Positions 1 through 37,895 of a stretch of DNA of 37,895 nucleotides are shown piece after piece. The DNA comes from a virus. Location: UHGV virus genome UHGV-0162601. One strand, 5' to 3'. The position numbers and the translations under genes were made by a program. The notes under the pieces are model-generated. The model was not told the origin of the DNA, did not search any database, and worked only from the letters and a program-made list of their open reading frames with translations. Each line of letters begins with the position of its first letter. The first letter of the stretch is position 1.

Positions 1-101
1 AATACGATATCTTTGATTCCTAGTTTCTTCAGATTAGTTAAACAAACTTCAAGCTTCCATTTAAACCGATTGATTGCCGGCTGACAAAGAATATACTTCA
101 T
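1..101 (-). CDS. N-terminal part (33 codons) of a GT8-like glycosyltransferase gene that continues in frame at 37895 if the window is circular
   Basis: ATG at 101-99 preceded by AGGTGA (112-107). The frame is open to position 1 (MKYILCQPAINRFKWKLEVCLTNLKKLGIKDIV). The last 2 nt plus the complement of 37895 form a TTG codon and the frame continues without a stop into ORF 37121..37828. Confidence 0.5.
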   Translation of the reverse strand, partial: MKYILCQPAINRFKWKLEVCLTNLKKLGIKDIV

Positions 102-110
102 TCTGATCAC

Positions 111-1271
111 CTACGCTTGTGTTGTAGTTGTTGTGGTTGTTGGTTTTGTAGTTGTAGTAGTAGTTCCCAAAGCGCTAATATCTAATACAATGAAACTATC
201 ATTACGTTTAGGTTGTCCGTTTGCATATTGTTTAGCTAGATAAATGCGTTCGTCTTCAACAAAATGGTATTCATCTGAAGCTTCAATTTTTAGCGTAGAT
301 CCTACACCCATGAAGTAATCTGAAGCTACCCCAATAACTGCTTTTCCTTCTGGCACAGCTGTTGACTGCAAGTCTGAAACTGGTACTGGCAATACTTGTA
401 CATATTCTCCATTAGCAGTTAGTACGGTTTTAGCTGGGAAAACTTTAGACCAGTAATCTGTTGGATTCACAATTAGGACCACATCAGAAGGATTTACATT
501 ACGATAAATCGGATCATCTACGCCTTCGATATTGAATTTTGATAGTCGTGCCATCAAACCACCCATCGTTGCAGCATCTAATGCTGTAATAGGTTCTGCT
601 GTTTTTTCAGCATATTCTCCGCTAGTTTGTTTGCTCATGTCACGCATCATTCCGACTGGCATATCTTTACCAGTACCATCAACAATTGCTTGTTCTAATG
701 CAATTCTCAATGATTCTACTAGAACAGTACGGACATAACGATCTAACCATACTGGACCTAAGTCAAGCATTGCCTTACATACAGGAATATAACCTGATAG
801 CTTGAACTGCTTCATGTTAATTACGTCAAAGCCATTATCTAAAACTTTTTTAACAGCTTCGCACAGTTTTCCCCACCATGCTGGATTGACTCCACGTGAC
901 ACAATCCATTCTGTTACACCAGTTGTGTTAACAAAAGTAATTTTTTGCAACAGTGGATGAGATTGTTCTAGATCTTCAAATACGCGTTCAAATACAGTAG
1001 CTGGTACTAATTCTTCAACTCCTGCAAAACCTTCGTTATTCACTACTTCGTTATAGAATTTTGTTTCTTGTGTAGTTAGTACACGCTGACCACGGTTCAT
1101 TAATACTAATTGATCTTGATTTTTTGCTGTTGCTTCTTCTAAAATTTTATCCTGTATTTCCTTAGATAAACTTACCATAGCTGCGCTAAAAGACTCTTCG
1201 TTACCATCTTTAAAAGCTTTCATCAATTGGTCGCTTGCAGCTGTTACACCTTTTAAATTTTTAACTGTCAT
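111..1271 (-). CDS. major capsid protein, HK97 family, with C-terminal ...TTTTTTKPTTTTTTTQA tail
   Basis: 386 aa, position after the ClpP-like protease, and typical HK97-fold MCP length. The C-terminal poly-Thr uses mixed ACN codons. Confidence 0.85.
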   Translation of the reverse strand: MTVKNLKGVTAASDQLMKAFKDGNEESFSAAMVSLSKEIQDKILEEATAKNQDQLVLMNRGQRVLTTQETKFYNEVVNNEGFAGVEELVPATVFERVFEDLEQSHPLLQKITFVNTTGVTEWIVSRGVNPAWWGKLCEAVKKVLDNGFDVINMKQFKLSGYIPVCKAMLDLGPVWLDRYVRTVLVESLRIALEQAIVDGTGKDMPVGMMRDMSKQTSGEYAEKTAEPITALDAATMGGLMARLSKFNIEGVDDPIYRNVNPSDVVLIVNPTDYWSKVFPAKTVLTANGEYVQVLPVPVSDLQSTAVPEGKAVIGVASDYFMGVGSTLKIEASDEYHFVEDERIYLAKQYANGQPKRNDSFIVLDISALGTTTTTTKPTTTTTTTQA

Positions 1272-1966
1272 TATTTTGCATCTCCTTGTCCAAATGTTTT
1301 ATTTAATGCTGCTGTAAATGCAGCAATTTTTTCTGCTCTTTTTTCTTCAACGTCATTCAAAATTTCTTCAACGCTTTGTTCTTTTTTAGCTTCAGTACCT
1401 GTGCTATTTTCTGCATCGATAATTTCATCGACCAATCCATAACTCAAAGCTGTTTCTGCATCCATAAACGATTCTTTTTCAAGAAGTTCTTGCAATGCTT
1501 CATCTGTACCGTTGAATCGTGTTTTATATGAAGCCTTTACCGATTTATCAATTGATTCCAATTGATCAGCAATCGTGCGGAAGTCATCAACATTACCTTC
1601 TCCATATGTGGAAGCGCGGTGAATCATCAATTGCGCATTGTTGTAAATTTTTACAGTATCGCCAGCCATCGCGATAATTGAAGCAGCACTAGCGGCTAAT
1701 CCGTTAATCACAACGTTGATTTTTGCTTTATTTGACTTAAGTAAGTTCCCAATAGCAATCCCTTGAAATACGTCTCCACCGTTTGAATTAATTACTACTT
1801 CAATTTCTTCTTGATCACCTAGACTATCCAAAATATTTTTGATTCCCTTGTCAGTATTCCCTTCAAAGAACCAACTAGAACCAATAAATCCCTGAATAAA
1901 AATTTGCGGTACTGTGCCTTCATTCTTTACTGCTAGAAATGTTTTCATTGTCGTCATTCGCCTCAC
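1271..1966 (-). CDS. ClpP-family head maturation protease
   Basis: ClpP-like core (VINSNGGDVF...INGLAASAASIIAMAGD) and position between portal and capsid. Confidence 0.8.
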   Translation of the reverse strand: MRRMTTMKTFLAVKNEGTVPQIFIQGFIGSSWFFEGNTDKGIKNILDSLGDQEEIEVVINSNGGDVFQGIAIGNLLKSNKAKINVVINGLAASAASIIAMAGDTVKIYNNAQLMIHRASTYGEGNVDDFRTIADQLESIDKSVKASYKTRFNGTDEALQELLEKESFMDAETALSYGLVDEIIDAENSTGTEAKKEQSVEEILNDVEEKRAEKIAAFTAALNKTFGQGDAK

Positions 1967-3116
1967 CTCCTTTCGATACTTGTTGGTTGTTTTTAGTTAT
2001 AAATATTTCATCCGCCATCGCCTTATCAGAGCGATCATTTCCAACGCGTTCTCTTCCTTCGTTGATTGTAAATACCCCATTTCTAATGCCGACATCAATA
2101 GCGTCAACCAAATCTTTGAAGCTAGTAATCTTGATCATAGTTGTATCCACGCGTACAAAATTTCCTGACAAGTATTCTTCTGCTTCATAGAGACTAGCGT
2201 TAAATGCATCCTGAATAAGTTCAGCAATCGGTATGATTTCGAACATTAAAAAAGCGTCCACTTGATCCGATAACCCACTCATGTCTCCCTTTAGTAGGTT
2301 TTTCGGAACGTGAAACGCTGCTGCTGTCATCTCAAAGATGTCATCTATTAAGTTTTTTATATCTCTTGAATTGCTTTGAAAATTTCCGCTGAAATCTTCT
2401 AATGTGTACTCATTTTGTAATTGAAATACCGCACCTGCATTATCGGCTTCCATAAAAGCCTTAAATTGTGATGTCATCATTTTATTGATTTGATCTTGTG
2501 TTGTATTGTCTTGCGATCGGAATAAATTCCCTTTCAGTACGTATCTACGAGCGTTAGAACGCTTGTAAACATTCATAGCACTAGAAATGAGTTTCCCATA
2601 CGCTTGATAATACGCATCGACTAGTTGCCTAATTCGTTGATCTGCGTATTTTATATAGATAACATCACTTTCTAGAAATTCTCTATCAAGGACTATGTTG
2701 TTAATTTGCACTTGAGAAAACACATCATCTTTCAATGCATATTCTGTGACATCCCAACTATCCGCAATAAATATTTCGCTAGAATTATTAGACGGAGAAA
2801 CGATCAACACTTCATTGTAGAATATTAATCTCCTGATCAGTTTTTTTCTAAATTCTGTTGCATTATTTTTCTTATTAGGAGCTACATTCAGCCTATAGTA
2901 AAGATCATTCTTTTTATTTTTTCCATCTTCATATGACTTGAATTCTGCTTTACTCATCGCATTTGCAATCAAATCAATACAAGTTTCAATCGCAAATTTT
3001 CGATACACAAAATCAACTTGCAATTTACAAAAATATTCTTCTAAAGGAACTGTTGCTTTTTTTGTGAAGTATCCTACCGCCTTTTGAAAAATCCCCACTT
3101 TCTCACCTCCTTTCAA
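1920..3116 (-). CDS. portal protein (HK97-type)
   Basis: 398 aa, immediately downstream of TerL and upstream of the protease. Confidence 0.75.
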   Translation of the reverse strand: MKGGEKVGIFQKAVGYFTKKATVPLEEYFCKLQVDFVYRKFAIETCIDLIANAMSKAEFKSYEDGKNKKNDLYYRLNVAPNKKNNATEFRKKLIRRLIFYNEVLIVSPSNNSSEIFIADSWDVTEYALKDDVFSQVQINNIVLDREFLESDVIYIKYADQRIRQLVDAYYQAYGKLISSAMNVYKRSNARRYVLKGNLFRSQDNTTQDQINKMMTSQFKAFMEADNAGAVFQLQNEYTLEDFSGNFQSNSRDIKNLIDDIFEMTAAAFHVPKNLLKGDMSGLSDQVDAFLMFEIIPIAELIQDAFNASLYEAEEYLSGNFVRVDTTMIKITSFKDLVDAIDVGIRNGVFTINEGRERVGNDRSDKAMADEIFITKNNQQVSKGGEANDDNENISSSKE

Positions 3117-3117
3117 G

Positions 3118-4821
3118 TTAGAATACTAGAGGAGTAAATCCAGTTCCTGTATTTTCTACTGAGCTATTTGTGACTGTTACAGGAGCAGAATCATAAATAT
3201 CATCTAAAAAATTCAAACCATGAAGGAATGAAAAAAAACCATCCGTTTTTCTAGTTTCAGGTTCTATTTTTTCATAGCGTATATTTCCATTAGAAATATG
3301 CTCTTCATATACATTCATGCAGTACCAACGCATAATTGCATCGTCACCAAAATATAAACGTTGATTAATAAAAAGGTCATCAACCAGATCTTTTAACATA
3401 CCATGTGTAACAGATCCGCTTCGAACAATTTCCACAGTAAAACCCGCTTCTTCTAAAGCGGGCTTCAATATTTTTGCACGGTACATATCCATAGCAATTT
3501 TTTTAATGTAATATTTGTTACTCATTTCAAGAAACCAACCTACGATATAATCTGCTTCTATATTTTTTCCATGAACGATTTGTGATTTGCCTTGATCTAT
3601 AGAAATATCTATAACCTCTCGTTTTATGTTCTGTAATCGAAGAGCTGATTCGTGGATAAAAGTATGTTGCGTAAAATAAACATCTTTATCATATTTTCCT
3701 AGCAACCCAACGCTGGCAAAATCTCGTCTATCAGCAAAATCGACTGTTCCTATCACTTCATCCATTTTTTCAGGAAATTCTTTTTCTTTCGTATGCAGAA
3801 CATCATCATATGAAGCAACAGCAAATCGTGTATCTTCCATAGGTCTGTTCATTCGTTTTGTCATGAACGTAAGTCTTAAACCAGCATTACGTTGCATTTG
3901 AGAGTATTCTTGAAACATTTTCCGTTTTAAATCTGCATTGTAATTAATAGTTGGACAAGCTTTTTCCCACATGTCAGGATCATCAACTTCATCATCATTA
4001 TCTAAGCGACAAATAAATGGAAACAAACTAGAAAATTCTGCTCCATCTTTATCAATTCCAAGTTCTCCAGAAAGAATCATTTTTGATTCTTCTATAATGT
4101 CATCAAGTGGTCCACCTCGAACATGACCATTAGTTGTATCATAAAATTCTCTATAATCTCGAATTTTACCACCACCAGAAGTAGCTACATTCATCATTGA
4201 ATAATCTTCATTTTCGTGAATTTCATCAAAGCGGTTTGCTCCTGGCCGTTTACCATCTTTTGTTCTAGCGTTCGCCGTGTTATATCGAAGTTTGCTATTT
4301 GTAGCAATATTTTTAATGACTTCCTTGGTTGCTTTGAATACTTTTTTATCTAAATCAGGATGAGCTTTAATCACTTGATAGACGTCTTCAAAGCTAGTCT
4401 TGGCTTGATCTTCATTATTCGCAAAAATGTCAATATTATAATTTTTAATACCGTGTTTCGCGGTTAGTAAAAAGAAGTTGTTCCATGATGCATAACCCGT
4501 TTTGCCATTTCCTCGACCCATCAGAGTTAAATATCTATTGAACACTAGCGTTTTATCTTTTTTCCATCGGACTCCATAAATAAAACATTGTAGAAATTTT
4601 TCCCACGGAATTAATTCAAATGGAAAGTATTGTGCTGGTATATTGATTGAATCCTCTACCATCTGCTTATCGAAGTAAATATCTTCTCTAGTAAAGACTC
4701 TTTCTTCTAGATAATTTTTTAGCAATAATTGCTCTTTGCATACCTTGATAGTGCCTTCTTCTATAGCTTTGAACCAATTTTCAATATGCTTATAATTCAG
4801 GAATTGATTCATTTGCTTCAC
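3118..4821 (-). CDS. terL: terminase large subunit
   Basis: 567 aa with a Walker-type ATPase region (LTLMGRGNGKTGY) and nuclease C-terminus. Overlaps TerS. Confidence 0.9.
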   Translation of the reverse strand: MKQMNQFLNYKHIENWFKAIEEGTIKVCKEQLLLKNYLEERVFTREDIYFDKQMVEDSINIPAQYFPFELIPWEKFLQCFIYGVRWKKDKTLVFNRYLTLMGRGNGKTGYASWNNFFLLTAKHGIKNYNIDIFANNEDQAKTSFEDVYQVIKAHPDLDKKVFKATKEVIKNIATNSKLRYNTANARTKDGKRPGANRFDEIHENEDYSMMNVATSGGGKIRDYREFYDTTNGHVRGGPLDDIIEESKMILSGELGIDKDGAEFSSLFPFICRLDNDDEVDDPDMWEKACPTINYNADLKRKMFQEYSQMQRNAGLRLTFMTKRMNRPMEDTRFAVASYDDVLHTKEKEFPEKMDEVIGTVDFADRRDFASVGLLGKYDKDVYFTQHTFIHESALRLQNIKREVIDISIDQGKSQIVHGKNIEADYIVGWFLEMSNKYYIKKIAMDMYRAKILKPALEEAGFTVEIVRSGSVTHGMLKDLVDDLFINQRLYFGDDAIMRWYCMNVYEEHISNGNIRYEKIEPETRKTDGFFSFLHGLNFLDDIYDSAPVTVTNSSVENTGTGFTPLVF

Positions 4822-5104
4822 CTACCAATTCAGGAGTAATGGCAAGTTTATCCAACATCAATCCCATTTGTTTGTTGACAGAAACAAGCAACGCTACTGA
4901 TTCATTCTTTTTACCATTCTCCAGTCTAATGCCGTTCTCGGATATATCTTCTTCCAGTGATATCGCCGTTTCCCATAAACTGATATAACGATCAACATTA
5001 TCTAAGAATGGCTCAATATTTGTTTTCTGACTTTCCAATTGGCTTATTAAAGAGCGGCGTAATTTTTCTCTGTAGCGATTTTGAGACAATTCGTTTTTAA
5101 ACAT
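4790..5104 (-). CDS. terS: terminase small subunit (P27-like)
   Basis: 104 aa, directly upstream of and overlapping terL. Confidence 0.6.
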   Translation of the reverse strand: MFKNELSQNRYREKLRRSLISQLESQKTNIEPFLDNVDRYISLWETAISLEEDISENGIRLENGKKNESVALLVSVNKQMGLMLDKLAITPELVGEANESIPEL

Positions 5105-5206
5105 TTTAGCCCTCCTTTCATGATAAAATTCGAAAAAATCTCTTTTCCTGACAGCCCCCTCCGTTTCATCACCCCCAAAAAATTTGCGATTTATTTTAAG
5201 GGGGGG
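5105..5206. other. candidate cos / packaging-recognition region with C5-7 and G7 tracts forming a long-loop hairpin
   Basis: cccccaaaaaatttgcgatttattttaaggggggg plus cagccccctccg stand out in an AT-rich genome. The region lies between the HNH endonuclease and terS. Confidence 0.3.
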
Positions 5207-5492: not shown

Positions 5493-5837
5493 TTACCACC
5501 TTTCACTTGCATCGAAGTTAGCAAAGCTTTCTATCTTCTTCTCTTGTTTATCTAATGCTGTAAGATATCTGCCATGAACTTCATTATGATGTTCAACACA
5601 TAAACAAATAAGATTATCTAAATCTAAAGCTAAGTCAGGTCTATCCTTGACTTCCTTTATATGATGAACGTTCTCTACTCTATGATACTTACCTAGTCTT
5701 CTACACTCTTGGCATTCATAGTGATCTCGTTTCATCGCTTTCTCTCTAAGCCTGCGCCATTTAGGAGACTGATAGAACTTAACCAAACGATCTTCTCTTA
5801 TCAACTGTAATAACCATCTATAGAATTCCTCGGTCAT
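5493..5837 (-). CDS. HNH endonuclease (terminase-associated)
   Basis: CQEC...HHIKEV...CLCVEHHNEVH zinc-binding HNH motif. Position upstream of terS is typical of cos phages. Confidence 0.85.
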   Translation of the reverse strand: MTEEFYRWLLQLIREDRLVKFYQSPKWRRLREKAMKRDHYECQECRRLGKYHRVENVHHIKEVKDRPDLALDLDNLICLCVEHHNEVHGRYLTALDKQEKKIESFANFDASERW

Positions 5838-6767: not shown

Positions 6768-7121
6768 ATGGCAAAAATTGATGATTACCGTTCAGACATG
6801 ATTGAATATATTGAACTCTTCGCTAAAAATTCTAACAATAATATTATTATTCAAACTGGAGGAGCAACAATTTGCGGAACTCCTATAGACTTTGATGCTG
6901 AAGTAAAAGTAAATCCTCTTATTGATGCTATGATGGATTCTTTTGCAGAATTTCGCTCAAAAAAAATTGATGATATAGAAAAAGATGATGAGCAAAGTTT
7001 GGTAGTCAAATCTATCTTTCTGAAAGATGTTACCATCATAGGCGAGAGAACTACTAATATCCCATTTTTAGTTGTTTTTGCTGATCAGATTTCTGCAATT
7101 TCTCTCGGGAACTTGGAGTAA
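6768..7121 (+). CDS. hypothetical acidic protein, opposite-strand moron gene
   Basis: 117 aa with its own promoter, RBS AAGGTGG and a downstream terminator. Confidence 0.6.
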   Translation: MAKIDDYRSDMIEYIELFAKNSNNNIIIQTGGATICGTPIDFDAEVKVNPLIDAMMDSFAEFRSKKIDDIEKDDEQSLVVKSIFLKDVTIIGERTTNIPFLVVFADQISAISLGNLE

Positions 7122-17513: not shown

Positions 17514-17975
17514 ATGGAAAAAGAGATTTTAATAAAATCTCCAGGAAAAACCTTGATCAAAGTAACTGATGATTCTATTTCAATTATTAGAAAAGGATTT
17601 ATAAATTTAGTTAATCAAGGTATTAAAGGAGAAAAAACTATTCCCTTTAAAAATATATCAGCAGTACAATTAAAAAAACCAGGTATGAGCAATGGTTATA
17701 TACAATTTACTCTGCTGGGTGGAAACGAAAGTCGTGGAGGAATATTAGCAGCCACGAAAGATGAAAACACCATTATGTTTACAAAAAAATATTGGAATGA
17801 AATGGAGAATTTAAAAAAATATATAGAGAAGCAACAATCTATATTAGATAATAATTCCAAAGAAACACAAATTTCAAGTGCAGATGAAATTAAAAAGTAT
17901 AAAGAGTTGTTGGATGAAGGTATTATTAATCAGGACGAATTTGATTTTAAGAAAAAAGAACTGCTTGGTTTGTAA
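17514..17975 (+). CDS. hypothetical protein with C-terminal SHOCT-like domain
   Basis: C-terminus EIKKYKELLDEGIINQDEFDFKKKELLGL matches the SHOCT pattern. Confidence 0.5.
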   Translation: MEKEILIKSPGKTLIKVTDDSISIIRKGFINLVNQGIKGEKTIPFKNISAVQLKKPGMSNGYIQFTLLGGNESRGGILAATKDENTIMFTKKYWNEMENLKKYIEKQQSILDNNSKETQISSADEIKKYKELLDEGIINQDEFDFKKKELLGL

Positions 17976-18008
17976 TATTAACTATCAAAAGAAAAGGATG
18001 TTTTATTA

Positions 18009-18644
18009 ATGGACGGTATATTCGGTTTTACTGGTATTGTTTTATTTTTTATAGGTTTAATCATGTTGATTGTAAGATTTATCAAAAAAACAAATAAGAA
18101 AACACCTATGATTCTCCTTATTATCGGGATTATTTTTACTGCCGTAGGTTTCTCACTTTCCTCATCAAACGAGGCAAATGACAATAACAAACAGGAAAGC
18201 TCATCATCTGAGACTCAAACTACTACATCTAACAGCAGCAATAAAAGCCTAACTCAATTTGAAGAATTTTTAGAGGCAAATAATCATGACTGGGGTGCTT
18301 TCTTAGATAGTTATTATTCTATTACTCCAGCTACTGAGCAAAATACAGCTTTTACTAAATATATTAGTGGTAAAACATATACTTTTGAAGGAACTGTTAT
18401 CGAATCAATGACTACTAGAATAGCCATTATAGCAGACAAAGAGTACGATGATAAAAGTTGGAGTGATATTTCTACAACACCTAAAGTTTCATATGTAATT
18501 TTTGCTAAGGACGTAAACAATGCTGATACCTTTACAAAAGGCGATAAAGTAACTTTTACAGGAGAAATTAGTTCAAGAGGATCGAACATAGAAAAATCCT
18601 ATGCTCAATGGGATATGATTAATAGTAAAGTAAGTAAAAAATAA
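18009..18644 (+). CDS. membrane-anchored protein (2 N-terminal TM helices + extracellular Ser/Thr-rich linker + domain); superinfection-exclusion candidate
   Basis: Hydrophobic segments at residues 5-25 and 35-55. Located in the lysogeny module. Confidence 0.5.
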   Translation: MDGIFGFTGIVLFFIGLIMLIVRFIKKTNKKTPMILLIIGIIFTAVGFSLSSSNEANDNNKQESSSSETQTTTSNSSNKSLTQFEEFLEANNHDWGAFLDSYYSITPATEQNTAFTKYISGKTYTFEGTVIESMTTRIAIIADKEYDDKSWSDISTTPKVSYVIFAKDVNNADTFTKGDKVTFTGEISSRGSNIEKSYAQWDMINSKVSKK

Positions 18645-18756
18645 ATGAACCACGCCCCACTAAGAGTTAGATTGTGCACAATAATAAAACCTATACAAAA
18701 GAGTGCCATCAGGAGTCACAATGCTTGTAAAGGAAATGACAAAATAGGAGGTAACT

Positions 18757-19392
18757 ATGGATAATAGCAATGAAAAACTAACCAAAAAAGAATATCTTGA
18801 ATTAATAGTTGAAGGCGGTATTGGAGCAATTCCTTATATTGGTGGCGTTGTGCAGTCACTTTATTTTGGGTCTAAAAACGAGAAGCGTTTCAAACGCATC
18901 GAGAAATTCTACAAAAATTTAAACGAATCATTAGAAAACATTCGCGATCAAATTCCAGAAGATGTTTTCAACTTAGAGAACAAGGACCAACTCATTGGAA
19001 TATTCGAAGGGATAAATGACGAGGTAGAAAAATCAAAGGCACAAAATAAAATAGATATGTATAAAAATCTTTATAAGAATTGTTTACTTCGAATTAACAA
19101 CGCTTCATGGGATAACGAGGAGTATTATCTTCTTGTACTGAATCAATTAACATCGATTGAGATTCAATTGTTAGCATGCTTAATGAGTCGTGGAAACGAA
19201 AATTTCACTGGAAATATCAGCATGTCTGGCTATTCACAAGAGCTAATAGATGGTAGCTTAAATAGATTATCTGATTTTGGTCTGTTAGAAAAAACGATTA
19301 GCTCCATAGTATTAGGTGATGTCGGCAAACAAAATATGGGCTACAAAATATCTCATTTAGGAATTCAATTTATTAACTCAACTCTTACTTAA
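18757..19392 (+). CDS. hypothetical protein (lysogeny-module cargo; Abi-like candidate)
   Basis: 211 aa, RBS GGAGG. Confidence 0.45.
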   Translation: MDNSNEKLTKKEYLELIVEGGIGAIPYIGGVVQSLYFGSKNEKRFKRIEKFYKNLNESLENIRDQIPEDVFNLENKDQLIGIFEGINDEVEKSKAQNKIDMYKNLYKNCLLRINNASWDNEEYYLLVLNQLTSIEIQLLACLMSRGNENFTGNISMSGYSQELIDGSLNRLSDFGLLEKTISSIVLGDVGKQNMGYKISHLGIQFINSTLT

Positions 19393-19690: not shown

Positions 19691-20830
19691 ATGGCAAGAT
19701 TAGTCAAACGTGGAAATAGTTGGCAATACGAAATTTCATACAAAAAAGATGACGGAAAATACACGAAGATAAGAAAATCAGGATTCAAGACAAAAGGCGA
19801 AGCAAAAGATGCCGCCAACGAATTAGAATATAACCTAAACAAAGGCCTTAAAGGGGATCGCAAAAATCTATTATTATCAGACTACTTTGAGGATTGGATG
19901 CAACTTTATAAAGAAGGAACAGTATCTCCTATCACTTATAGAAAATACGAAGATACGTTAATGAACATAAAGAAATATATGCCAGCGGTATTGATTTCTG
20001 ATTTAGATAGAGTTGGATATCAACGCTTTTTAAATAAGTATGCTAAAGACCATGTAAAATCTACCGTTATTAAGTTTAATAACCATATTAGAGCGTCGTT
20101 GAAAGATGCCGTAGAAGAAGGATTAATTCCGTTTGATCCAACTAGAAAAGCAGTAATCAAAGGAAAAGATTCATTGAAGCCAAAAGAAGATAAATATTTA
20201 GATTATGATCAATTTAAATCTTTAATGAAACTCGTAGAAGAAAACCTTTCTGCGCAGTACTCTTCTCCTATGCTCGTGTTAGTTGCTGGTGCCACTGGAA
20301 TGCGATTTGCTGAACTTCTAGGATTAACATGGGAAGATATCGATTTCGAAGATCAAATCATCACTATTAATAAAACATGGAATTATAAATTAAATGAATG
20401 GGGAAAAACAAAAAACGAAACTTCAAATAGGAAAATTTCCATTGATAAACATACGATTGATCTCTTAAAAAAGTTTAAAATCAATCAAAAAGAATTATTC
20501 GAGAATTTTGAAATCAAAAACCCTCATAATTTTGTTTTTTTCAACTTAAAAAATGGATTAGTTTCATCAAACGCCGTCAGCAAATATTTGCGCAAAAAAT
20601 TAAAAGAATTAGGGATTGAAAAGCAATTTACTTTGCATGGACTAAGGCATACACATGCATCTATTTTACTTTATCAAGGAGTAAATATACTTAGCGTATC
20701 GAAACGTTTAGGACATAGCAGTTTAGAAACTACAATGTCTACTTATCTTCATATTGTTCGAGAGCTTGAAGATCAGGATAAAGAAAAAATCAATGCTGTG
20801 TTCGATAGTTTATATAAAAATGATAACTAG
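19691..20830 (+). CDS. int: tyrosine integrase (phage integrase family)
   Basis: N-terminal SAM-like domain and C-terminal catalytic R...HGLRHTHASILLYQG...Y motifs. Confidence 0.9.
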   Translation: MARLVKRGNSWQYEISYKKDDGKYTKIRKSGFKTKGEAKDAANELEYNLNKGLKGDRKNLLLSDYFEDWMQLYKEGTVSPITYRKYEDTLMNIKKYMPAVLISDLDRVGYQRFLNKYAKDHVKSTVIKFNNHIRASLKDAVEEGLIPFDPTRKAVIKGKDSLKPKEDKYLDYDQFKSLMKLVEENLSAQYSSPMLVLVAGATGMRFAELLGLTWEDIDFEDQIITINKTWNYKLNEWGKTKNETSNRKISIDKHTIDLLKKFKINQKELFENFEIKNPHNFVFFNLKNGLVSSNAVSKYLRKKLKELGIEKQFTLHGLRHTHASILLYQGVNILSVSKRLGHSSLETTMSTYLHIVRELEDQDKEKINAVFDSLYKNDN

Positions 20831-21024
20831 TTTGGCACATTTTTGGCACAAATACAAAACAAACCCCTGTATCACAAAGGATACAGGGGTTATTTGTACG
20901 TTCCTGACTAACTATTACATGTCTTCTATTGTGTTTGTTATTATAAGAAATGTTATCATAATAGGATTCCTTTTTGTTTGTGTTTTATTAAATTCGATTT
21001 TTTTTGGCACATAATTTGGCACAA
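20831..21024. other. attP-like region: two pairs of TTTGGCACA direct repeats (20831, 20842; 21003, 21016) flanking about 150 bp that should contain the core
   Basis: Four identical 9-mers spaced 11 and 13 bp within each pair, immediately downstream of int. Confidence 0.5.
20864..20897 (+). terminator. int terminator (10-bp stem cccctgtatc/gatacagggg, loop acaaag, then ttatttgt)
   Basis: Perfect 10-bp stem. Confidence 0.7.
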
Positions 21025-21110: not shown

Positions 21111-21341
21111 ATGATGGAAGAATTTATTAGAAAAAATATTAGTGATGAATATGCAGATTTTTATGAGCAAAGCAACGAAAAAGACAAATTCCAGATGGAT
21201 GTTTCAATTTTAGCTATATTAGCTTTTTCCGAAAATAACCAACCTGTAACTGCAAAAAAAGAAACAGTATTCTCTGAAGGCAAAATAAAAACTCGATATA
21301 TATTAGAGGTAGAAACTAAGTTTAAAAATAGATCGGAGTAA
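21111..21341 (+). CDS. hypothetical small acidic protein (start MMEEFIRKN after GAGGTGA)
   Basis: ORF with RBS. TAATG overlap with the next gene. Confidence 0.45.
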   Translation: MMEEFIRKNISDEYADFYEQSNEKDKFQMDVSILAILAFSENNQPVTAKKETVFSEGKIKTRYILEVETKFKNRSE

Positions 21342-21646
21342 TGGTTATGCTTTTTAATGAGACGCAATTATGGTTTAAATTTGATCCTTCGAATAGATTT
21401 GTCAAAGATTTTTATAAGGTGTGGGATTCAGAAGTTTTCTTTTTAGCAATCGAAGATAGCTTATTAATCAATCTCTACTATTCTAATAAGAACTACTTTA
21501 AAATCCCTGCTGCGAAAACCAGAATGAAGAAAGATGTGTATTTTTTGTTTGATATCGTGACTGACGTGCCGGATACACGGAGCGATCATCGGCGTTATGA
21601 CTATATAAAGTATACTTTCGTTGATCCGGAAAGGTATAAAGATTAA
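21341..21646 (+). CDS. hypothetical protein, translationally coupled to 21111..21341
   Basis: ATG overlaps the upstream TAA. A hairpin follows. Confidence 0.5.
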   Translation: MVMLFNETQLWFKFDPSNRFVKDFYKVWDSEVFFLAIEDSLLINLYYSNKNYFKIPAAKTRMKKDVYFLFDIVTDVPDTRSDHRRYDYIKYTFVDPERYKD

Positions 21647-21897: not shown

Positions 21898-22161
21898 TTA
21901 ACCTATTGCAAAAAATAATAATATAAAATATCCTACAGGGATAATATTTAACAACAATCCACATACTGAGATAACTTTTTCAATAAGACTACTATTTTTA
22001 CTTAATGACCAAATAGAAAGTATAAATCCTATTACTCCCATTAATAAAACAGGAATGAGACTAGAAAATAGCATACCAAACCAGGTTGTAAAAATTTCTA
22101 TACTTACTAATATTCCTATTAATAAACTGAGAATATTGATAAATTTAAATCTTTTATCCAT
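21898..22161 (-). CDS. small 3-TM membrane protein
   Basis: 87 aa, very hydrophobic, RBS AAGGAGG. Confidence 0.55.
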   Translation of the reverse strand: MDKRFKFINILSLLIGILVSIEIFTTWFGMLFSSLIPVLLMGVIGFILSIWSLSKNSSLIEKVISVCGLLLNIIPVGYFILLFFAIG

Positions 22162-22199
22162 AAAAGTTCCTCCTTAATGGTAACTAAATTTTTATGTGC

Positions 22200-22290
22200 C
22201 CTGTAGAATTAAAACCTCCAATCAGATAGTTATAAGCCATCTGATCTGACCAGCTGAGCTAAAGGTACGGAAAGCCATCACAACTACTGC
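22200..22290 (-). other. tRNA-like fragment: D-arm consensus TAGCTCAGCTGGT plus an anticodon-arm-like hairpin (gatgg-cttataa-ctatc); no T-arm
   Basis: Minus-strand ttagctcagctggtcaga. Incomplete cloverleaf. Confidence 0.2.
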
Positions 22291-22657: not shown

Positions 22658-23056
22658 TTATTTTTGTTGACTATATAGCTGATATAAATCAATAACTGTA
22701 GGCATAACTCCTACTTCGCTATATAAATTAGAAATCAAATTAGAAGCTTTATTCAGGATAGGTTTAGCTAGCTCTCCCATAGATTCTTCTACTAATTTTT
22801 TATATGGCTGTTCATTTGTAGAAACACGAATAACTGAAAAGAGTAAAATATCTACCGGTGCTCCTTCCATCCCCCCTACAATGTGAGCTCGTAAAGAAAC
22901 AAGTTTTTTTTCTAGATACTCTGCTTCGTCTTCTTTATATCCAAGTTCAATATTAAACTCTAAATCTCCATAACTAAAATTATCAGTTAATTCAAAATGA
23001 ATTTTATTCAAACTAATATTTTCAAGTGCAAAAGTAACACTATTTCCTTTATCCAT
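22658..23056 (-). CDS. SecB-like chaperone (third gene of a TAC-type module)
   Basis: By-eye alignment to E. coli SecB: SVTFALENISLNKIHFE vs EMTFQIQRIYTKDISFE, and LAKPILNKASNLISNLYSEVGVMPTVIDLYQLY vs [36 protein letters not shown]. Confidence 0.6.
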   Translation of the reverse strand: MDKGNSVTFALENISLNKIHFELTDNFSYGDLEFNIELGYKEDEAEYLEKKLVSLRAHIVGGMEGAPVDILLFSVIRVSTNEQPYKKLVEESMGELAKPILNKASNLISNLYSEVGVMPTVIDLYQLYSQQK

Positions 23057-24257: not shown

Positions 24258-24282
24258 CGCCCCTCATCGAGGGGCTTTTTTT
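24258..24282. terminator. hairpin gcccctc-atc-gaggggc + T7 (A/T-rich on both sides) right after the endolysin stop
   Basis: 7-bp GC stem. ttttttt on plus; the endolysin stop codon is embedded in the run. Confidence 0.55.
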
Positions 24283-25300
24283 ATCGTTGCGGAATATTTA
24301 AATACCAGCGTTTATCATGAAAATCTTGTGCTCCGCCTTTAGTGTTCCCTTCTGGATCATTCGTTGCACGCATCATTACATAGACTTTCTTATTAGAAAA
24401 ATTACGCATATTGAAAGATACATGATAACCAACGTTTCCAGAAGTATTATAAGCTTGATTTACATCTGGTCTATAAATTCCATCAGCTCTTACTCGAGCT
24501 AATTCTTTCCCAGTATTGTAGTCCATAATGAAAATATACTCGTATTTATAGTTAGCGATGTGCCATCCAGCGACGTGTAAGTTCGCATTTTCGATTTCTC
24601 CAAACTGATCAATGTGAGAATGGTTCGTTCCATCTGATAAAGTTGGATTTGCTGCACCTGCTCGGGTTGGATCAATGACAGGCTTGTTCTCAGAAGTCGT
24701 TGGGTTTTCGTCTGTAAATCCATGAGCTAAATCGTAAGCCAGTTTTTCCTTACTTACACCCATTTCTGATAAGTATCCATACGGATCAGTGTGATCGCCC
24801 CAAATGTTTTGAGTTACCCATAAATGTGATTTGATTCCTGGTTGATTATACGGTGTGTCTAATGTAAGTGGAATACCGTATTTCTTTGCTGAATCTCTAG
24901 CCAATTCAACGTATGCTTTATAGTTTTTTTCAAAAGTTGCTTTATCATGTGTGTGTTGTAACTCAATCTGCACAGGACTATTGGCATTAGCATATGAACC
25001 AGCACCGTACTGTACATAACCAGGTTGTCCGACTTGGTAAACAATTCCACCGTCTCCCACAATGTAAGCAGTATAAGCACTAGTCCATGAACGTTGCATA
25101 TACTGCGCTTCATTGCGTCCTGTTGCTGTTTCGTTAGCTGTTTCATGCAGTAAAATATACTGATTATTCGCTACTTGAGAGCTACCTTCATTTACACCTA
25201 AATTAAATTCATTGTTAATCGTATAGGCAAACCCATTAATTGGCAATAAAAAAAGAGCCGTTAATAGGCTCATCGCAGTAATAGTAATTTTCTTTCTCAT
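24281..25300 (-). CDS. endolysin: N-acetylmuramoyl-L-alanine amidase (Amidase_2/PGRP-like) with N-terminal Sec signal peptide and a C-terminal wall-binding domain
   Basis: MRKKITITAMSLLTALFLLPINGFAY signal-like N-terminus. Amidase_2-like YILLHETANE... Last gene of the lysis cassette. Confidence 0.75.
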   Translation of the reverse strand: MRKKITITAMSLLTALFLLPINGFAYTINNEFNLGVNEGSSQVANNQYILLHETANETATGRNEAQYMQRSWTSAYTAYIVGDGGIVYQVGQPGYVQYGAGSYANANSPVQIELQHTHDKATFEKNYKAYVELARDSAKKYGIPLTLDTPYNQPGIKSHLWVTQNIWGDHTDPYGYLSEMGVSKEKLAYDLAHGFTDENPTTSENKPVIDPTRAGAANPTLSDGTNHSHIDQFGEIENANLHVAGWHIANYKYEYIFIMDYNTGKELARVRADGIYRPDVNQAYNTSGNVGYHVSFNMRNFSNKKVYVMMRATNDPEGNTKGGAQDFHDKRWYLNIPQR

Positions 25301-35064: not shown

Positions 35065-35670
35065 TTAAGCTTGAGTCGTTGTAGTAGTGGTTGTTGAACT
35101 CTTTTTAATCACATCAGCAGATAGATTCGTCATCCATTGATCTGTTAAGTCTTCTTCAAGTTCTGCAACAATTGCTTCATGATAGAATTTACCAAATTCA
35201 TCTTGCATAACTTTTGTTTCTAGTTCTAAAGCAGCTACTTCATCCGCACCATTTTCAATAGAGAATGTTAATCCTGTATTCGAAGTGCATGCTAACATAC
35301 CAACTAACTTGCTATTTTCTTCGAAGTCATCCACGATCTCTGCAGCAAGTGAGAAATCTTCGCCTACGGAATCAGGACCGTAAGAGTAAATGCCTGGTTT
35401 AATACGTTCATCTTGTTTCAACCCATTGAAACGTCGATAAACTTCCATCGGTACATGTGCAGTAATTGTTACCGTCATATTGATTGGTTTAGATTTTGAT
35501 TTTACTTCTGTCGCTCCACATTTTTTAACCACCGTTTGCATTTCTGTTTCGCCATCTAATTGTCCGTTACAATCTGTTGCGATTGCATTTTCTGCATTCT
35601 TAAAATTAAAAGCAATTCGTTTGATACTCACGTTATCGAACGTTGTTACTACAGTTGTTGTTTTAGCCAT
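35065..35670 (-). CDS. major tail protein with C-terminal ...SSTTTTTTTQA tail
   Basis: 201 aa, position upstream of the G/GT chaperones. The poly-Thr uses mixed codons (ACT/ACG/ACA/ACC). Confidence 0.8.
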   Translation of the reverse strand: MAKTTTVVTTFDNVSIKRIAFNFKNAENAIATDCNGQLDGETEMQTVVKKCGATEVKSKSKPINMTVTITAHVPMEVYRRFNGLKQDERIKPGIYSYGPDSVGEDFSLAAEIVDDFEENSKLVGMLACTSNTGLTFSIENGADEVAALELETKVMQDEFGKFYHEAIVAELEEDLTDQWMTNLSADVIKKSSTTTTTTTQA

Positions 35671-36095: not shown

Positions 36096-36480
36096 TCTTC
36101 AATAATCGTCTAAACGTAAATACCAATTGATCGATATAGCGATCTTGATTTTCTAGTTTTAAATGGTTGGGATCCATTCTCTGAAAACGAATCGAACGAT
36201 TTTGAATCAATGAAATAATATCTAGTGAATCTCCTGTTAAATCTTCTCTATTTTCTGAATAGAAAGTTAGATATAGATTTTGACCCACGCTATATTTTGG
36301 TTCAGTGATCATTTCTATTTCTCCTGTTTCGAGAATGAAGTAATTAAAATCATCAGGTAGCTCATCCTCGCCAACAGAGTCTTGAAAGAGTTTGAGCTTA
36401 AAATGTTCTTCTAAGGAAGTTTTGATAGCAGAAATTTGCTTATTTAAACGTTCTTTTTCTTTAGAATTATCAATAACCAT
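36079..36480 (-). CDS. neck protein (HK97 gp10-like tail-to-head joining)
   Basis: 133 aa from MVIDNSKEKERL after RBS GGGTGA. Position. Confidence 0.45.
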   Translation of the reverse strand: MVIDNSKEKERLNKQISAIKTSLEEHFKLKLFQDSVGEDELPDDFNYFILETGEIEMITEPKYSVGQNLYLTFYSENREDLTGDSLDIISLIQNRSIRFQRMDPNHLKLENQDRYIDQLVFTFRRLLKSDCHG

Positions 36481-36826
36481 ATTCACCCACACTTTCAAGA
36501 TAAAAATAGATATAAAAATTATCGTAATCGGCATAGATAACGTTGTAACGCATACTATCGATTACGATAAAATATTGATCTTTATTAAATTTCTTGGCGA
36601 TCGGATGAAATGGAGTCTTTACTTTCTTAGTTAATTTCGATCCCATCGCATCCATAGCTGTTATATCACTATCTCTCATGGAAAGATTTCTAAATTTTAA
36701 AGAAGTGATTTCTGTATCTTCTACACCAATCTTTTTTCCTAGTTCATTTCTTTTGGTAGTTTGCGTCAAAATCTTTAACCAACCATCGTTGAATGTTTCT
36801 TCGAGTCTACGATTATTCGCCATTCC
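36470..36826 (-). CDS. head closure protein
   Basis: 118 aa from MANNRRLEE after AGGTGA. Start overlaps the upstream stop. Confidence 0.45.
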   Translation of the reverse strand, partial: GMANNRRLEETFNDGWLKILTQTTKRNELGKKIGVEDTEITSLKFRNLSMRDSDITAMDAMGSKLTKKVKTPFHPIAKKFNKDQYFIVIDSMRYNVIYADYDNFYIYFYLESVGEYGY

Positions 36827-37124
36827 CATCACCTGCAATATATTCTTGTAGCGCATAATGTTGAATGAAACCTAATAACTCACTAGCGAAATTTTGTTCA
36901 AACTCATCTAAAGCACGATTCCAGTCGTATCTACATCTTTCGATTAGCAATCCGTATTCTAAGCTTTCAGGAGAAAAAGAAAGTGTTGTACTCACTTTAC
37001 TTTGAAGATAAACAGCATTTTTAGCTATCATCTTTTTAATTGACTCATCTTCTTCGTTCCAGGTAACGTAAATATTATCCTTCACAGCTATTAGCAATTC
37101 TTCAGTCACTTGTTCAGGCGTCAT
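36813..37124 (-). CDS. head-tail connector (gp6-like adaptor)
   Basis: 103 aa, first small gene after the capsid/GT genes. Confidence 0.5.
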   Translation of the reverse strand: MTPEQVTEELLIAVKDNIYVTWNEEDESIKKMIAKNAVYLQSKVSTTLSFSPESLEYGLLIERCRYDWNRALDEFEQNFASELLGFIQHYALQEYIAGDGNGE

Positions 37125-37895
37125 CTAACCACCGCCTTAATTGCTTTAACATATGCGTAAGAGCATTTTTTCTTGTTTACAAATGATAAATCTTCATCAA
37201 AAGGCGTGGAAGTAACGTATCTCCCTTTGAAAAATAAATCTTCATCATTTGTTGTTACTCCAGCGTTATGCAAGATTTTTACTTCTTTAAATTTTTCTAT
37301 TGGATCAGTAGCAAAACAAAAGTTTAATTCCTCGTGAACTTTAGGACCAATATTGAAATACATCATGTTCCAAAGCTGTGCCCACATCTCGGCTGTCCAA
37401 ATCTGTACATTTGTTTTTTGCCCTCTAAGGTAGCGATATAGCCGATTAGAATCCAGATAAACCTTTTTCCAATAATTCGCTTTAGGACGGTTAATAACCC
37501 ACTGTGCGCCTCCTGAATTAGTGTTTATAGTTTCCAAAGATTCTACTCTAACATTTACAATATTTGCCATATCTTTTAGAATATTTTCTCCGTTTTCACA
37601 GCTTCTAATATAATCAAGACTTAGATAACTACAGCAGTCGCTACAATACCAAACATCATCTTTAGAAGGCAATTTGCGCAAATTAATTCTTTTATTGAAA
37701 ATGACATCCGAATCGATATAGAAATATCGGTCGTCCTCACGCGAATGATCTTCTTCTAAATATTTCCACCATAAATATGGTTTAATCGAAGGAATATACT
37801 CTTTGTCGTCCCGCAGATCATCGTACACATGAACTTCAACGCCATATTCCTTCTCAAAAAAAATAGGAATCTGATCATCGTGTCTGCTGAAAAGC
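37121..37895 (-). CDS. GT8-family (LgtC/RfaJ-like, GT-A fold) glycosyltransferase, 5' end runs off the window edge and continues at 1..101
   Basis: DxD motif in RYFYIDSDVIF matches GT8 LYLDSDIIV. Downstream NTNSGGAQWVINRPKANYWKK matches GT8 FNSGVLLINLKKWR. The frame is open to 37895. Confidence 0.5.
   Translation of the reverse strand, partial: LFSRHDDQIPIFFEKEYGVEVHVYDDLRDDKEYIPSIKPYLWWKYLEEDHSREDDRYFYIDSDVIFNKRINLRKLPSKDDVWYCSDCCSYLSLDYIRSCENGENILKDMANIVNVRVESLETINTNSGGAQWVINRPKANYWKKVYLDSNRLYRYLRGQKTNVQIWTAEMWAQLWNMMYFNIGPKVHEELNFCFATDPIEKFKEVKILHNAGVTTNDEDLFFKGRYVTSTPFDEDLSFVNKKKCSYAYVKAIKAVVR

What the first reader, a model, noticed from the sequence alone, without database searches (positions are those of the whole stretch)
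1..101. Window is probably a circular or circularly permuted complete phage genome: an ORF continues in frame across the 37895 to 1 junction
Minus-strand ATG at 101 opens a frame with no stop through position 1 (32 codons + 2 nt). The right edge frame is open from 37895 to the ORF 37121..37828. Joining the complement of 37895 to 2,1 gives codon TTG and a seamless 292-aa ORF. Gene order across the junction (capsid, GT, connector) is also syntenic. This means genes at both edges are not truncated and the element is an excised or virion-form genome.
Basis: seen in the sequence. Interest (0 to 1): 0.55.

Follow-up and report, generated by a model that had tools for sequence, protein, structure and literature searches.

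The report
Complete circular Enterococcus phage genome
The two ends of this window really are neighbours on one DNA molecule, so it is an ordinary, complete temperate Enterococcus faecium phage genome written out from an arbitrary point; the gene cut by the ends is a likely sugar-adding enzyme that may decorate the phage coat.

Summary
On the minus strand, ATG at 101 runs through position 1 into 37895 and stops at 37121. That gives 291 aa plus a stop, and the junction codon is TTG (Leu34).

ORF continuity alone is weak evidence, because about 10% of random joins within this genome pass the same test. Homology settles it:
- The 600-nt junction matches the circular record of Enterococcus phage 4995_1 with no gaps.
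- An exact 40-mer spanning the join occurs in 57 IMG/VR contigs.
- An ENA metagenome contig (37,919 nt) is 100% identical to window 15830-37895 and continues straight into window 1-52.

The window carries an intact attP (core 20866-20909, overlapping the 3' end of tRNA-Arg(CCT)) and no bacterial flanks. It has a full set of phage modules. It is therefore the excised or circular form of a temperate HK97-like siphophage.

The window's ends are arbitrary. Three genome-length linear contigs instead break in the terS-upstream spacer (5116-5193), which is the likely cos site.

Side finding: the junction gene encodes a GT-A-fold glycosyltransferase. It is always next to virion proteins with poly-threonine tails, which suggests virion O-glycosylation.

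The parts
1..101 (-). 5' part of the junction-spanning gene: codons 1-33 plus two bases of codon 34, with ATG at 101-99
   Evidence: PHROG 4417 match covers residues 1-289 colinearly
37121..37895 (-). 3' part of the same gene: third base of codon 34 through the stop. The joined product is 291 aa with a GT-A glycosyltransferase fold and an invariant D95-x-D97 motif
   Evidence: (pLDDT 97.1, pTM 0.92)
107..112 (-). AGGTGA ribosome-binding site of the junction gene, overlapping the TAG stop (111-113) of the capsid gene
   Evidence: read directly
111..1271 (-). Major capsid protein (PF05065, HK97 type). Its C-terminal tail GTTTTTTKPTTTTTTTQA is encoded at 114-167
1271..1966 (-). ClpP-type head maturation protease
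1920..3116 (-). Portal protein (PF04860)
3118..4821 (-). Large terminase (PF03354 ATPase + PF20441 nuclease)
4790..5104 (-). Small terminase (Terminase_4 / P27 family)
5105..5206 (.). terS-upstream spacer with G/C runs: the putative cos region. Genome-length linear contigs end or start at about 5129, 5153, 5163 and 5193. The tightest pair omits only about 5152-5163 (CAGCCCCCTCCG)
   Evidence: inferred, not proven
5493..5837 (-). HNH endonuclease next to the terminase genes (a hallmark of cos-type packaging modules)
19691..20830 (+). Tyrosine integrase, 379 aa. The exact protein is found in many E. faecium chromosomes next to tRNA-Arg(CCT)
20866..20909 (.). attP core (CCTGTATCACAAAGGATACAGGGGTTATTTGTACGTTCCTGACT), shared with both prophage junctions. 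Positions 20898-20909 are the 3' 12 nt of tRNA-Arg(CCT) on the complementary strand
22195..22268 (-). Phage-borne tRNA-Ile (anticodon TAT) in the low-GC cargo region between attP and the lysis genes
24281..25300 (-). Endolysin (Amidase_2). This rare allele led to the identical ENA contig
35065..35670 (-). Major tail protein (PHROG 117) ending in SSTTTTTTTQA (encoded at 35068-35100). It is the only other poly-Thr-tailed ORF in the window
36470..36856 (-). Head-tail adaptor (PHROG 5635), downstream of the junction gene

Best explanation
The window is the whole genome (37,895 bp) of a temperate Enterococcus faecium siphophage. It has an HK97-type head module and an HNH / P27-TerS / TerL packaging module. 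It is represented in its non-integrated, circularisable form and written out from an arbitrary point inside a late gene.

Joining 37895 to 1 restores one gene, which lies between the capsid gene and the head-tail connector genes. It encodes a 291-aa GT-A-fold putative glycosyltransferase.

Shown directly:
- The join is exact to the base.
- attP is intact.
- There is no host DNA.
- All phage modules are present.

Inferred life cycle:
- The phage integrates through its tyrosine integrase at the 3' end of tRNA-Arg(CCT), using a 44-bp core.
- On induction it excises to the circle seen here.
- It is packaged from concatemers by cos cleavage in the spacer upstream of terS (about 5116-5193, possibly at the G/C-rich 12-mer 5152-5163).
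- Virion DNA ends therefore lie about 5.1 kb from the window's start, not at 37895/1.

Provenance, inferred: the window is probably a trimmed and rotated copy of a linear metagenome contig. ENA ERZ19635754 k141_1160 is 37,919 nt, which is 37,895 + 24.
For: Join:
- Translation across the join.
- PHROG 4417 colinear match, E=6e-155.
- 896 homologs; those listed are nearly all full-length, and the closest is 97% identical and 291 aa.
- 595/600 identity with 0 gaps to circular phage 4995_1, and whole-genome circular colinearity with it.
- Metagenome contig L013 spans the join.
- Exact 40-mer across the join in 57 IMG/VR contigs.
- Ten chromosomal prophages carry the same order.
- ENA contig k141_1160 is 100.000% identical over 22,066 nt and reads on into window 1-52, with a 291-aa gene call.

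Excised form:
- Similarity to the integrase-side junction stops at 20909, where tRNA-Arg(CCT) begins in the hosts.
- Similarity to the lysin-side junction starts at 20866.
- The window has phage arms on both sides of this core.

Completeness: capsid, protease, portal, TerL, TerS and HNH; adaptor, neck, tail and late activator; integrase, repressor/ImmA, Rha, recombination and replication genes, lysis genes.

Relatives as circles: seven 20-40 kb (four of them 36-40 kb) non-mobilizable E. faecium 'plasmid' records hold the same module. At least one of them, pF39_2, is recorded as circular.

cos:
- Gene layout.
- Two IMG/VR genome-length contigs (38,195 and 35,246 nt) have both termini inside 5129-5193.
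- Both lack the 30-mer 5147-5176 that 55 other contigs hold.
- The ENA contig's ends fall at about 5116/5139 by coordinate arithmetic.
Against: - No reads are available, so physical circularity and the nature of the termini are not observed directly.
- The three contigs do not break at the same nucleotide (5116/5139, 5129/5193, 5153/5163).
- One end (5129) coincides with an A/G polymorphism at 5128, so strain heterogeneity or G/C homopolymer runs could also explain breaks there.
- The ends of the ENA contig could not be retrieved. Its 24 extra bases could be a terminal repeat or an indel, for example 8 codons in the poly-Thr tail.
- Relatives deposited as plasmids leave some room for episomal maintenance.
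Confidence: 0.92

Rival explanations
1. Headful (pac) phage. Virion DNA is circularly permuted and terminally redundant, so assemblers close it into a circle and the break point is arbitrary for that reason.
For: - A circle-like assembly with arbitrary ends is what pac phages give.
- The window has no terminal repeat.
Against: - An HNH endonuclease lies beside a P27-type TerS and TerL. This is the arrangement of cos phages such as staphylococcal phi12 and phiSLT (Quiles-Puchalt 2014, cited in PMC5052747; otherwise my own knowledge).
- Genome-length linear contigs end in one 80-nt spacer upstream of terS rather than anywhere.
Confidence: 0.07
2. Phage-plasmid. The element is maintained as an extrachromosomal circular prophage rather than, or as well as, integrating.
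For: - Seven related 20-40 kb records (four of them 36-40 kb) are deposited as E. faecium plasmids in finished genomes.
- Phage 4995_1 is itself a circular contig carrying bacterial-genome locus tags.
Against: - The element has an integrase and an intact attP.
- The exact integrase is found integrated at tRNA-Arg(CCT) in many chromosomes: 96 index blocks, with ten places shown.
- No partition or plasmid replication family appears among the Pfam hits for the early region.
- PLSDB gives these records no replicon type and calls them non-mobilizable.
- Spontaneous induction in culture explains circular contigs more simply.
Confidence: 0.08
3. The in-frame join is a coincidence. The window is a fragment of a larger sequence (an integrated prophage or a longer contig) whose two ends happen to be compatible.
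For: Random joins of this genome satisfy the ORF criterion 10.4% of the time.
Against: - The join is reproduced base for base in independent sequences.
- The joined protein matches a 293-position profile end to end.
- attP is internal and intact, so the window cannot be a prophage cut out of a chromosome.
Confidence: 0.01

Closest known systems
Enterococcus phage 4995_1 (OP745419.1, 38,995 bp, circular record; host E. faecium 4995/20)
   Same: - Same structural, packaging and integration modules at 94-98% nucleotide identity.
- Fully colinear as circles.
- Same 291-aa gene between the capsid and connector genes.
- Same integrase.
- Also carries a tRNA-Ile gene.
   Different: - Only about 57-61% of the window is covered at megablast level.
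- Early genes, the immunity region, the cargo next to attP, the endolysin (84% identity) and part of the tail fibre and tape measure differ.
- 4995_1 carries IS elements that the window lacks.
E. faecium 'plasmids' that are phage genomes (e.g. pF39_2 NZ_CP072883.1, E8440 plasmid 3 NZ_LR135421.1)
   Same: - Four of the seven are 36-40 kb.
- Non-mobilizable, with no replicon type.
- Same head-tail module, with the junction gene intact.
- Opened at arbitrary points inside genes.
   Different: - Mosaic early and lysogeny regions; NZ_LR135421.1 also carries a different site-specific integrase.
- None is the same genome as the window.
HNH-dependent cos packaging modules (HK97; staphylococcal phi12 / phiSLT)
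   Same: - HNH endonuclease gene directly upstream of terS-terL-portal-protease-capsid.
- Candidate cos in the spacer before terS.
   Different: - No cohesive ends have been demonstrated here.
- The candidate cos sequence was not compared with, or shown to be related to, any published one.
Virion glycosylation of mycobacteriophages (Che8 and relatives; Freeman et al. 2023, cited in PMC11256854)
   Same: - A phage-encoded glycosyltransferase.
- Capsid (stated in PMC11256854) and tail-tube (my recollection) subunits as the presumed targets.
- Here the capsid and major tail proteins are the only two ORFs with poly-Thr C-terminal tails.
   Different: - Different host phylum.
- The enzyme family has no Pfam or PDB sequence match and is unannotated in PHROGs.
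- The gene sits inside the head-tail operon rather than near the genome end.
- Glycosylation has not been shown here.
- The source paper could not be read, so details of the comparison rest on secondary citations and memory.

Membership tests
Complete phage genome in circular / excised (attP) configuration | The two ends of the linear record are adjacent in the real molecule, with no base missing or duplicated | tested here: met
   0 gaps in 600 nt against 4995_1; exact 40-mer in 57 contigs; an identical ENA contig reads through the join; no terminal repeat in the window
Complete phage genome in circular / excised (attP) configuration | Intact attP (phage arm - core - phage arm) and no bacterial flanks | tested here: met
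   Core 20866-20909 delimited by comparison with both prophage junctions; 4995_1 matches across it
Complete phage genome in circular / excised (attP) configuration | Full set of modules (packaging, head, connector, tail, lysis, lysogeny, replication) | tested here: met
Complete phage genome in circular / excised (attP) configuration | Physical circularity or end structure seen in reads | not testable with these tools
   No reads or assembly graph are available
cos-type HK97-like siphophage with HNH-assisted terminase | HNH endonuclease adjacent to terS/terL, followed by portal, ClpP-type protease and HK97-fold capsid protein | tested here: met
cos-type HK97-like siphophage with HNH-assisted terminase | Fixed genome termini with cohesive ends | tested here: inconclusive
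   Both termini of two genome-length contigs lie in 5129-5193. A third contig's termini are placed there by arithmetic only. The break points are not identical, and polymorphism is an alternative cause
Headful (pac) circularly permuted genome | pac-type terminase and variable termini | tested here: not met
   Terminase context is HNH/P27; linear contigs break at one site
Phage-plasmid | Plasmid replication and partition functions; no dependence on integration | tested here: not met
   No such Pfam families in the early region; integrase and attP are present, with many integrated copies. Relatives filed as plasmids have no replicon type
GT-A fold glycosyltransferase | Rossmann-like GT-A fold | tested here: met
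   AlphaFold model with pLDDT 97.1 and pTM 0.92. Foldseek against PDB finds WbbM, GT6, UGGT and glycogenin at E 6e-8 to 2e-6 and TM about 0.5. Viral GT8-like hits
GT-A fold glycosyltransferase | DxD metal / nucleotide-sugar motif | tested here: met
   D95 and D97 are invariant in 90 homologs, directly after strand 90-93
GT-A fold glycosyltransferase | Membership of a curated sequence family (Pfam/CAZy) | tested here: not met
   No Pfam hit at E<=1. No PDB sequence hit. PHROG 4417 is 'unknown function'
GT-A fold glycosyltransferase | Sugar-transfer activity | not testable with these tools
   Needs biochemistry
Phage virion glycosylation system (Che8-like) | Phage-encoded GT together with Ser/Thr-rich acceptor segments on capsid and tail-tube subunits | tested here: met
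   Poly-Thr tails occur only on the capsid and major tail proteins in the window. The ORF ending at the GT start is poly-Thr-tailed in 47/47 diverse genomic loci and in IMG/VR loci. 0/402 ORFs are tailed in GT-less loci
Phage virion glycosylation system (Che8-like) | Glycans detected on virion proteins | not testable with these tools
   Needs glycostain or mass spectrometry

The most novel reading that the evidence does not exclude
The gene split by the window ends is the enzyme of a widespread and, as far as I could find, undescribed virion O-glycosylation module of Bacillota phages.

The module has two parts. One is a GT-A glycosyltransferase family (PHROG 4417, no Pfam) embedded in the head-tail operon. 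The other is poly-threonine C-terminal tails on two to four virion proteins: the capsid protein or a decoration protein, and the tail tube protein.

In this reading the enzyme coats the particle surface with sugars. This would be analogous to the glycan shield of mycobacteriophage Che8, but in phages of Enterococcus, Listeria, Staphylococcus, Lactococcus, lactobacilli and many bacilli.
Probability: 0.5. Interest if true: 0.65.

Novelty: new member of a known kind. Interest (0 to 1): 0.22.

Why it matters
For the finding itself, the practical value is this:
- The record can be treated as a complete genome.
- The two edge 'fragments' should be annotated as one gene.
- The genome should be re-opened at the cos site or at attP for comparison with other phages.

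The work also shows that ORF continuity across contig ends is a poor circularity test by itself, with about a 10% false-positive rate here.

The lineage is very common in E. faecium, a hospital pathogen. Its exact small terminase is listed in 23,557 blocks of the assembly index. It is also repeatedly misfiled as a plasmid.

The larger potential interest lies in the junction gene. If it glycosylates the poly-Thr tails of the capsid and tail tube, virion glycosylation would extend well beyond actinobacteriophages. That would bear on antibody recognition and mucus or host-surface adherence of phages considered for therapy.

Tried and rejected
I worked around this with homologs and neighbouring genes.
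- Pfam and a PDB sequence-profile search gave nothing for the junction protein. Only fold comparison was informative.
- Seven look-ups aimed at the termini of ENA contig k141_1160 failed. The proteins were too common (TerS, ORF 6768-7121, TMP), the contig was not displayed, or no exact gene call existed. Its ends therefore rest on coordinate arithmetic.
- I checked whether the 'linear' plasmid record NZ_LR135421.1 ends at cos. It does not; it is opened inside the endolysin gene.
- No direct terminal repeat is present in the window, so there is no assembler overlap or DTR left in it.
- The CCCCCCC...GGGGG segment in the spacer does not form a convincing hairpin by inspection. I dropped it as a terminator explanation but did not fold it.
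- PADLOC and Pfam scans of the cargo genes next to attP and of the lysogeny-side genes gave only sub-threshold hits.
- Freeman et al. 2023 is not in the held library. Searches for capsid or tail glycosylation via Thr-rich tails in Firmicutes phages found nothing relevant. This is absence in the held library only.

Full report
**1. The observation**

There is an ATG at 101, with no stop down to position 1. Codon 34 is TTG, made from the complements of positions 2, 1 and 37895. The frame stays open to a stop ending at 37121. An AGGTGA ribosome-binding site at 107-112 overlaps the TAG stop of the upstream capsid gene.

On its own this is weak evidence. I joined random unrelated points of this same genome and asked for a stop-free frame of at least 250 codons with at least 33 codons on each side. 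That succeeded in 10.4% of joins, against 38.8% of truly contiguous points. Genes here are dense and mostly on one strand, so frame compatibility is roughly a one-in-three event.

**2. Proof that the join is real**

- The joined protein matches PHROG 4417 end to end: residues 1-289 on profile positions 1-291 of 293, E=6e-155.
- It has 896 homologs; those listed are nearly all full-length (about 280-300 aa). The closest cluster is 97% identical, 291 aa, and has 1,096 members.
- Leu34, the junction codon, lies in a column that is at least 90% conserved, within a predicted beta strand.
- At DNA level, a 3-kb junction construct hits Enterococcus phage 4995_1 (OP745419.1, circular record) in one piece at 98% identity. 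The central 600 nt align 595/600 with no gap.
- The whole window is colinear with that circle. Window 1 corresponds to 30372 and window 37895 to 30371.
- A metagenome contig (L013) spans the join.
- The exact 40-mer made of the last 20 and first 20 bases occurs in 57 IMG/VR contigs.
- Ten E. faecium chromosomal loci carrying the exact tape-measure protein show HNH-TerS-TerL-portal-protease-capsid(386 aa)-291 aa-103 aa in one run.
- ENA contig ERZ19635754 k141_1160 (37,919 nt) is 100.000% identical to window 15830-37895 (22,066 nt, no mismatch). It continues directly into window 1-52, and its gene call there is a 291-residue product.

The sequence beyond the right edge is the left edge.

**3. 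What the molecule is**

The nearest records are Enterococcus faecium temperate phages.

Gene content is complete:
- HK97-type capsid, ClpP-type protease, portal, TerL, P27-type TerS and HNH.
- Head-tail adaptor, neck, major tail protein and an ArpU-like late activator.
- Tape measure, tail proteins, XhlA, holin and amidase.
- HTH repressor, ImmA-type peptidase, Rha, Sak-type annealing protein, HNHc nuclease and replisome organiser.
- Tyrosine integrase at 19691-20830.

The exact integrase protein is found integrated in many E. faecium chromosomes. In all ten places shown, similarity to the window stops at 20909, where the body of tRNA-Arg(CCT) begins. The other prophage junction was reached through the DUF5960 gene at 21341-21646. 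There, similarity starts at 20866.

The 44 bp from 20866 to 20909 are therefore the att core. They comprise the tRNA's 3' 12 nt plus its terminator hairpin. The window has phage DNA on both sides of this core, so it holds attP, not attL or attR, and carries no host DNA. In an integrated copy the 37895/1 join lies deep inside the prophage, as observed.

**4. Where the real ends probably are**

The packaging module (HNH next to a P27-type TerS and TerL) is the arrangement of cos phages. Staphylococcal phi12 and phiSLT are examples (reference to Quiles-Puchalt 2014 in PMC5052747). The HK97 example rests on my own knowledge.

The 102-nt spacer between the upstream ORF and terS (5105-5206) contains G/C runs that stand out in a 35% GC genome.

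I mapped every true contig terminus among the fetched loci onto the window. The only two contigs of genome length have both termini in this spacer:
- UViG_3300002882_000001 (38,195 nt) starts at 5193 and ends at about 5129.
- UViG_3300045988_078260 (35,246 nt) starts at about 5163 and ends at about 5153. It omits just CAGCCCCCTCCG.

Both lack the 30-mer 5147-5176, which 55 other contigs contain. Most of those 55 are prophages from isolate genomes.

The identical ENA contig is flagged 'flag_1', which in MEGAHIT means a standalone, non-looped contig (my own knowledge). Its ends fall at about 5116 and 5139 by coordinate arithmetic. I could not retrieve its termini. Its 24 extra bases could be a terminal repeat or an indel.

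I read this as probable cos termini near 5150-5165, with confidence of about 0.65. Two caveats apply. The break points are not identical, and one coincides with an A/G polymorphism at 5128.

In either case the window's own ends are arbitrary. The length relation 37,919 = 37,895 + 24 suggests the window is a trimmed and rotated copy of that contig.

**5. Rivals**

- Headful packaging is disfavoured by the terminase context and by the fixed break site.
- A phage-plasmid lifestyle is suggested by seven related E. faecium 'plasmid' records of 20-40 kb and by 4995_1 being a circular contig with bacterial locus tags. Against it stand the integrase, attP, the many integrated copies, the absence of partition or plasmid replication families, and the lack of any replicon type. 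Spontaneous induction in culture explains such circles more simply.
- Coincidence is excluded by section 2.

**6. The gene at the junction (side finding)**

There is no Pfam hit and no PDB sequence hit.

An AlphaFold model built on 90 homologs is very confident (pLDDT 97.1, pTM 0.92). It matches retaining GT-A glycosyltransferases: WbbM, GT6 ABO/alpha-3-GalT, the UGGT catalytic domain and glycogenin, at E 6e-8 to 2e-6 and TM about 0.5. In the viral library it matches GT8-like enzymes. The closest viral hits are uncharacterised, for example Lactobacillus phage LP65 Orf49. D95-x-D97 is invariant, and so is H243.

The capsid protein immediately upstream ends in GTTTTTTKPTTTTTTTQA. The only other poly-Thr-tailed ORF among 135 in the window is the major tail protein, which ends in SSTTTTTTTQA.

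Comparative evidence for the association:
- In IMG/VR loci, including ones whose GT is only 66-74% identical and whose upstream proteins are unrelated, the ORF ending at the GT start carries a poly-Thr tail.
- Some of those upstream proteins are separate 113-145-aa proteins made of (E/A)PTTTTTTT repeats.
- The same holds in 47 of 47 loci from about 35 genera, including Staphylococcus, Listeria, Lactococcus, Clostridium and many bacilli. In two of these (L209, L217) the poly-Thr sequence was seen only in a short reading frame of 35 or 62 residues.
- Further poly-Thr-tailed ORFs sit at capsid-like and tail-tube-like positions in those loci.
- In 273 kb of GT-less Enterococcus loci, 0 of 402 ORFs have such tails.

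This is a strong enzyme-substrate signature for O-glycosylation of virion surface proteins. It parallels the capsid (and, as I recall, tail-tube) glycosylation reported for mycobacteriophage Che8 (Freeman 2023; known to me through PMC11256854 and PMC13313380; the paper itself is not held). I found no description of it for Firmicutes phages in the held library.

It remains a hypothesis, because no glycan has been observed.

**7. Verdict**

The finding is right and ordinary: a complete temperate phage genome in circular form, opened inside a gene. It is a new mosaic member of a very common E. faecium phage lineage, and an identical sequence already exists in a public assembly. The interest score for the finding as given is low. 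The junction gene's possible role in virion glycosylation is the part worth following up.

Noticed in passing
window 37121-37895 + 1-101 (GT), 114-167 (capsid tail), 35068-35100 (major tail protein tail); loci L016-L095, L197-L246: A GT-A-fold enzyme (PHROG 4417, no Pfam) lies next to virion proteins with poly-threonine C-terminal tails. In the window only the capsid and major tail proteins have such tails. The adjacency holds in 47/47 loci from about 35 Bacillota genera, and 0/402 ORFs in GT-less loci are tailed. This suggests phage-encoded O-glycosylation of the particle surface.
   Followed up: partly
window 5105-5206: The terS-upstream spacer has G/C runs. Both termini of two genome-length IMG/VR contigs fall here (about 5129/5193 and about 5153/5163), and by arithmetic so do the ends of the identical ENA contig. 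It is the probable cos site. The tightest pair omits CAGCCCCCTCCG (about 5152-5163).
   Followed up: partly
window 20866-20909: 44-bp attP core comprising the 3' 12 nt of host tRNA-Arg(CCT) plus its terminator hairpin. Integration regenerates the tRNA end. L188 also shows an integrase remnant at the lysin-side junction, which hints at earlier integrations at this site.
   Followed up: yes
window 22195-22268: Phage-borne tRNA-Ile with anticodon TAT (reads AUA). It sits in a 28-30% GC cargo region between attP and the lysis genes, and is also annotated in phage 4995_1.
   Followed up: no
window 22658-23994 (three minus-strand ORFs of 134, 150 and 168 aa) and 21898-22161 (87-aa membrane protein): Low-GC cargo cassette beside attP with no PHROG, Pfam or credible PADLOC match. 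It varies between relatives (IS elements or Abi_2 at the same place). It could be a moron or defence cargo.
   Followed up: partly
window 17514-19392: Genes on the lysogeny side, between the ImmA-type peptidase and the integrase: a DUF4429+SHOCT protein and two consecutive 211-aa ORFs. At least one of the 211-aa ORFs has weak membrane-protein-like Pfam hits. I did not check whether the two are paralogs. They are probably expressed from the prophage.
   Followed up: no
phage collection hits H3, H5, H6: Records named 'Listeria phage LM 4-14-1 / 4-11-1' and 'Acinetobacter phage D2SVT' share 88-94% nucleotide identity with large parts of this Enterococcus phage. D2SVT matches the same window segments as Enterococcus phage vB_ElaS_B1578, at near-identical identity and score. 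Host attribution of those records looks doubtful.
   Followed up: no
plasmid collection hits H50-H56: Seven E. faecium records filed as plasmids (20-40 kb, four of them 36-40 kb; non-mobilizable, no replicon type) are genomes of this phage lineage. One flagged 'linear' is simply opened inside its endolysin gene.
   Followed up: partly
window 4790-5104: The exact 104-aa small terminase is listed in 23,557 blocks of the public assembly index. This packaging module is extremely widespread in sequenced E. faecium.
   Followed up: no
L243: A homolog of the GT (42% identity), with a poly-Thr-tailed upstream ORF, sits on a contig binned as Candidatus Saccharimonadales. This is either a phage of a very different host or a binning error.
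   Followed up: no
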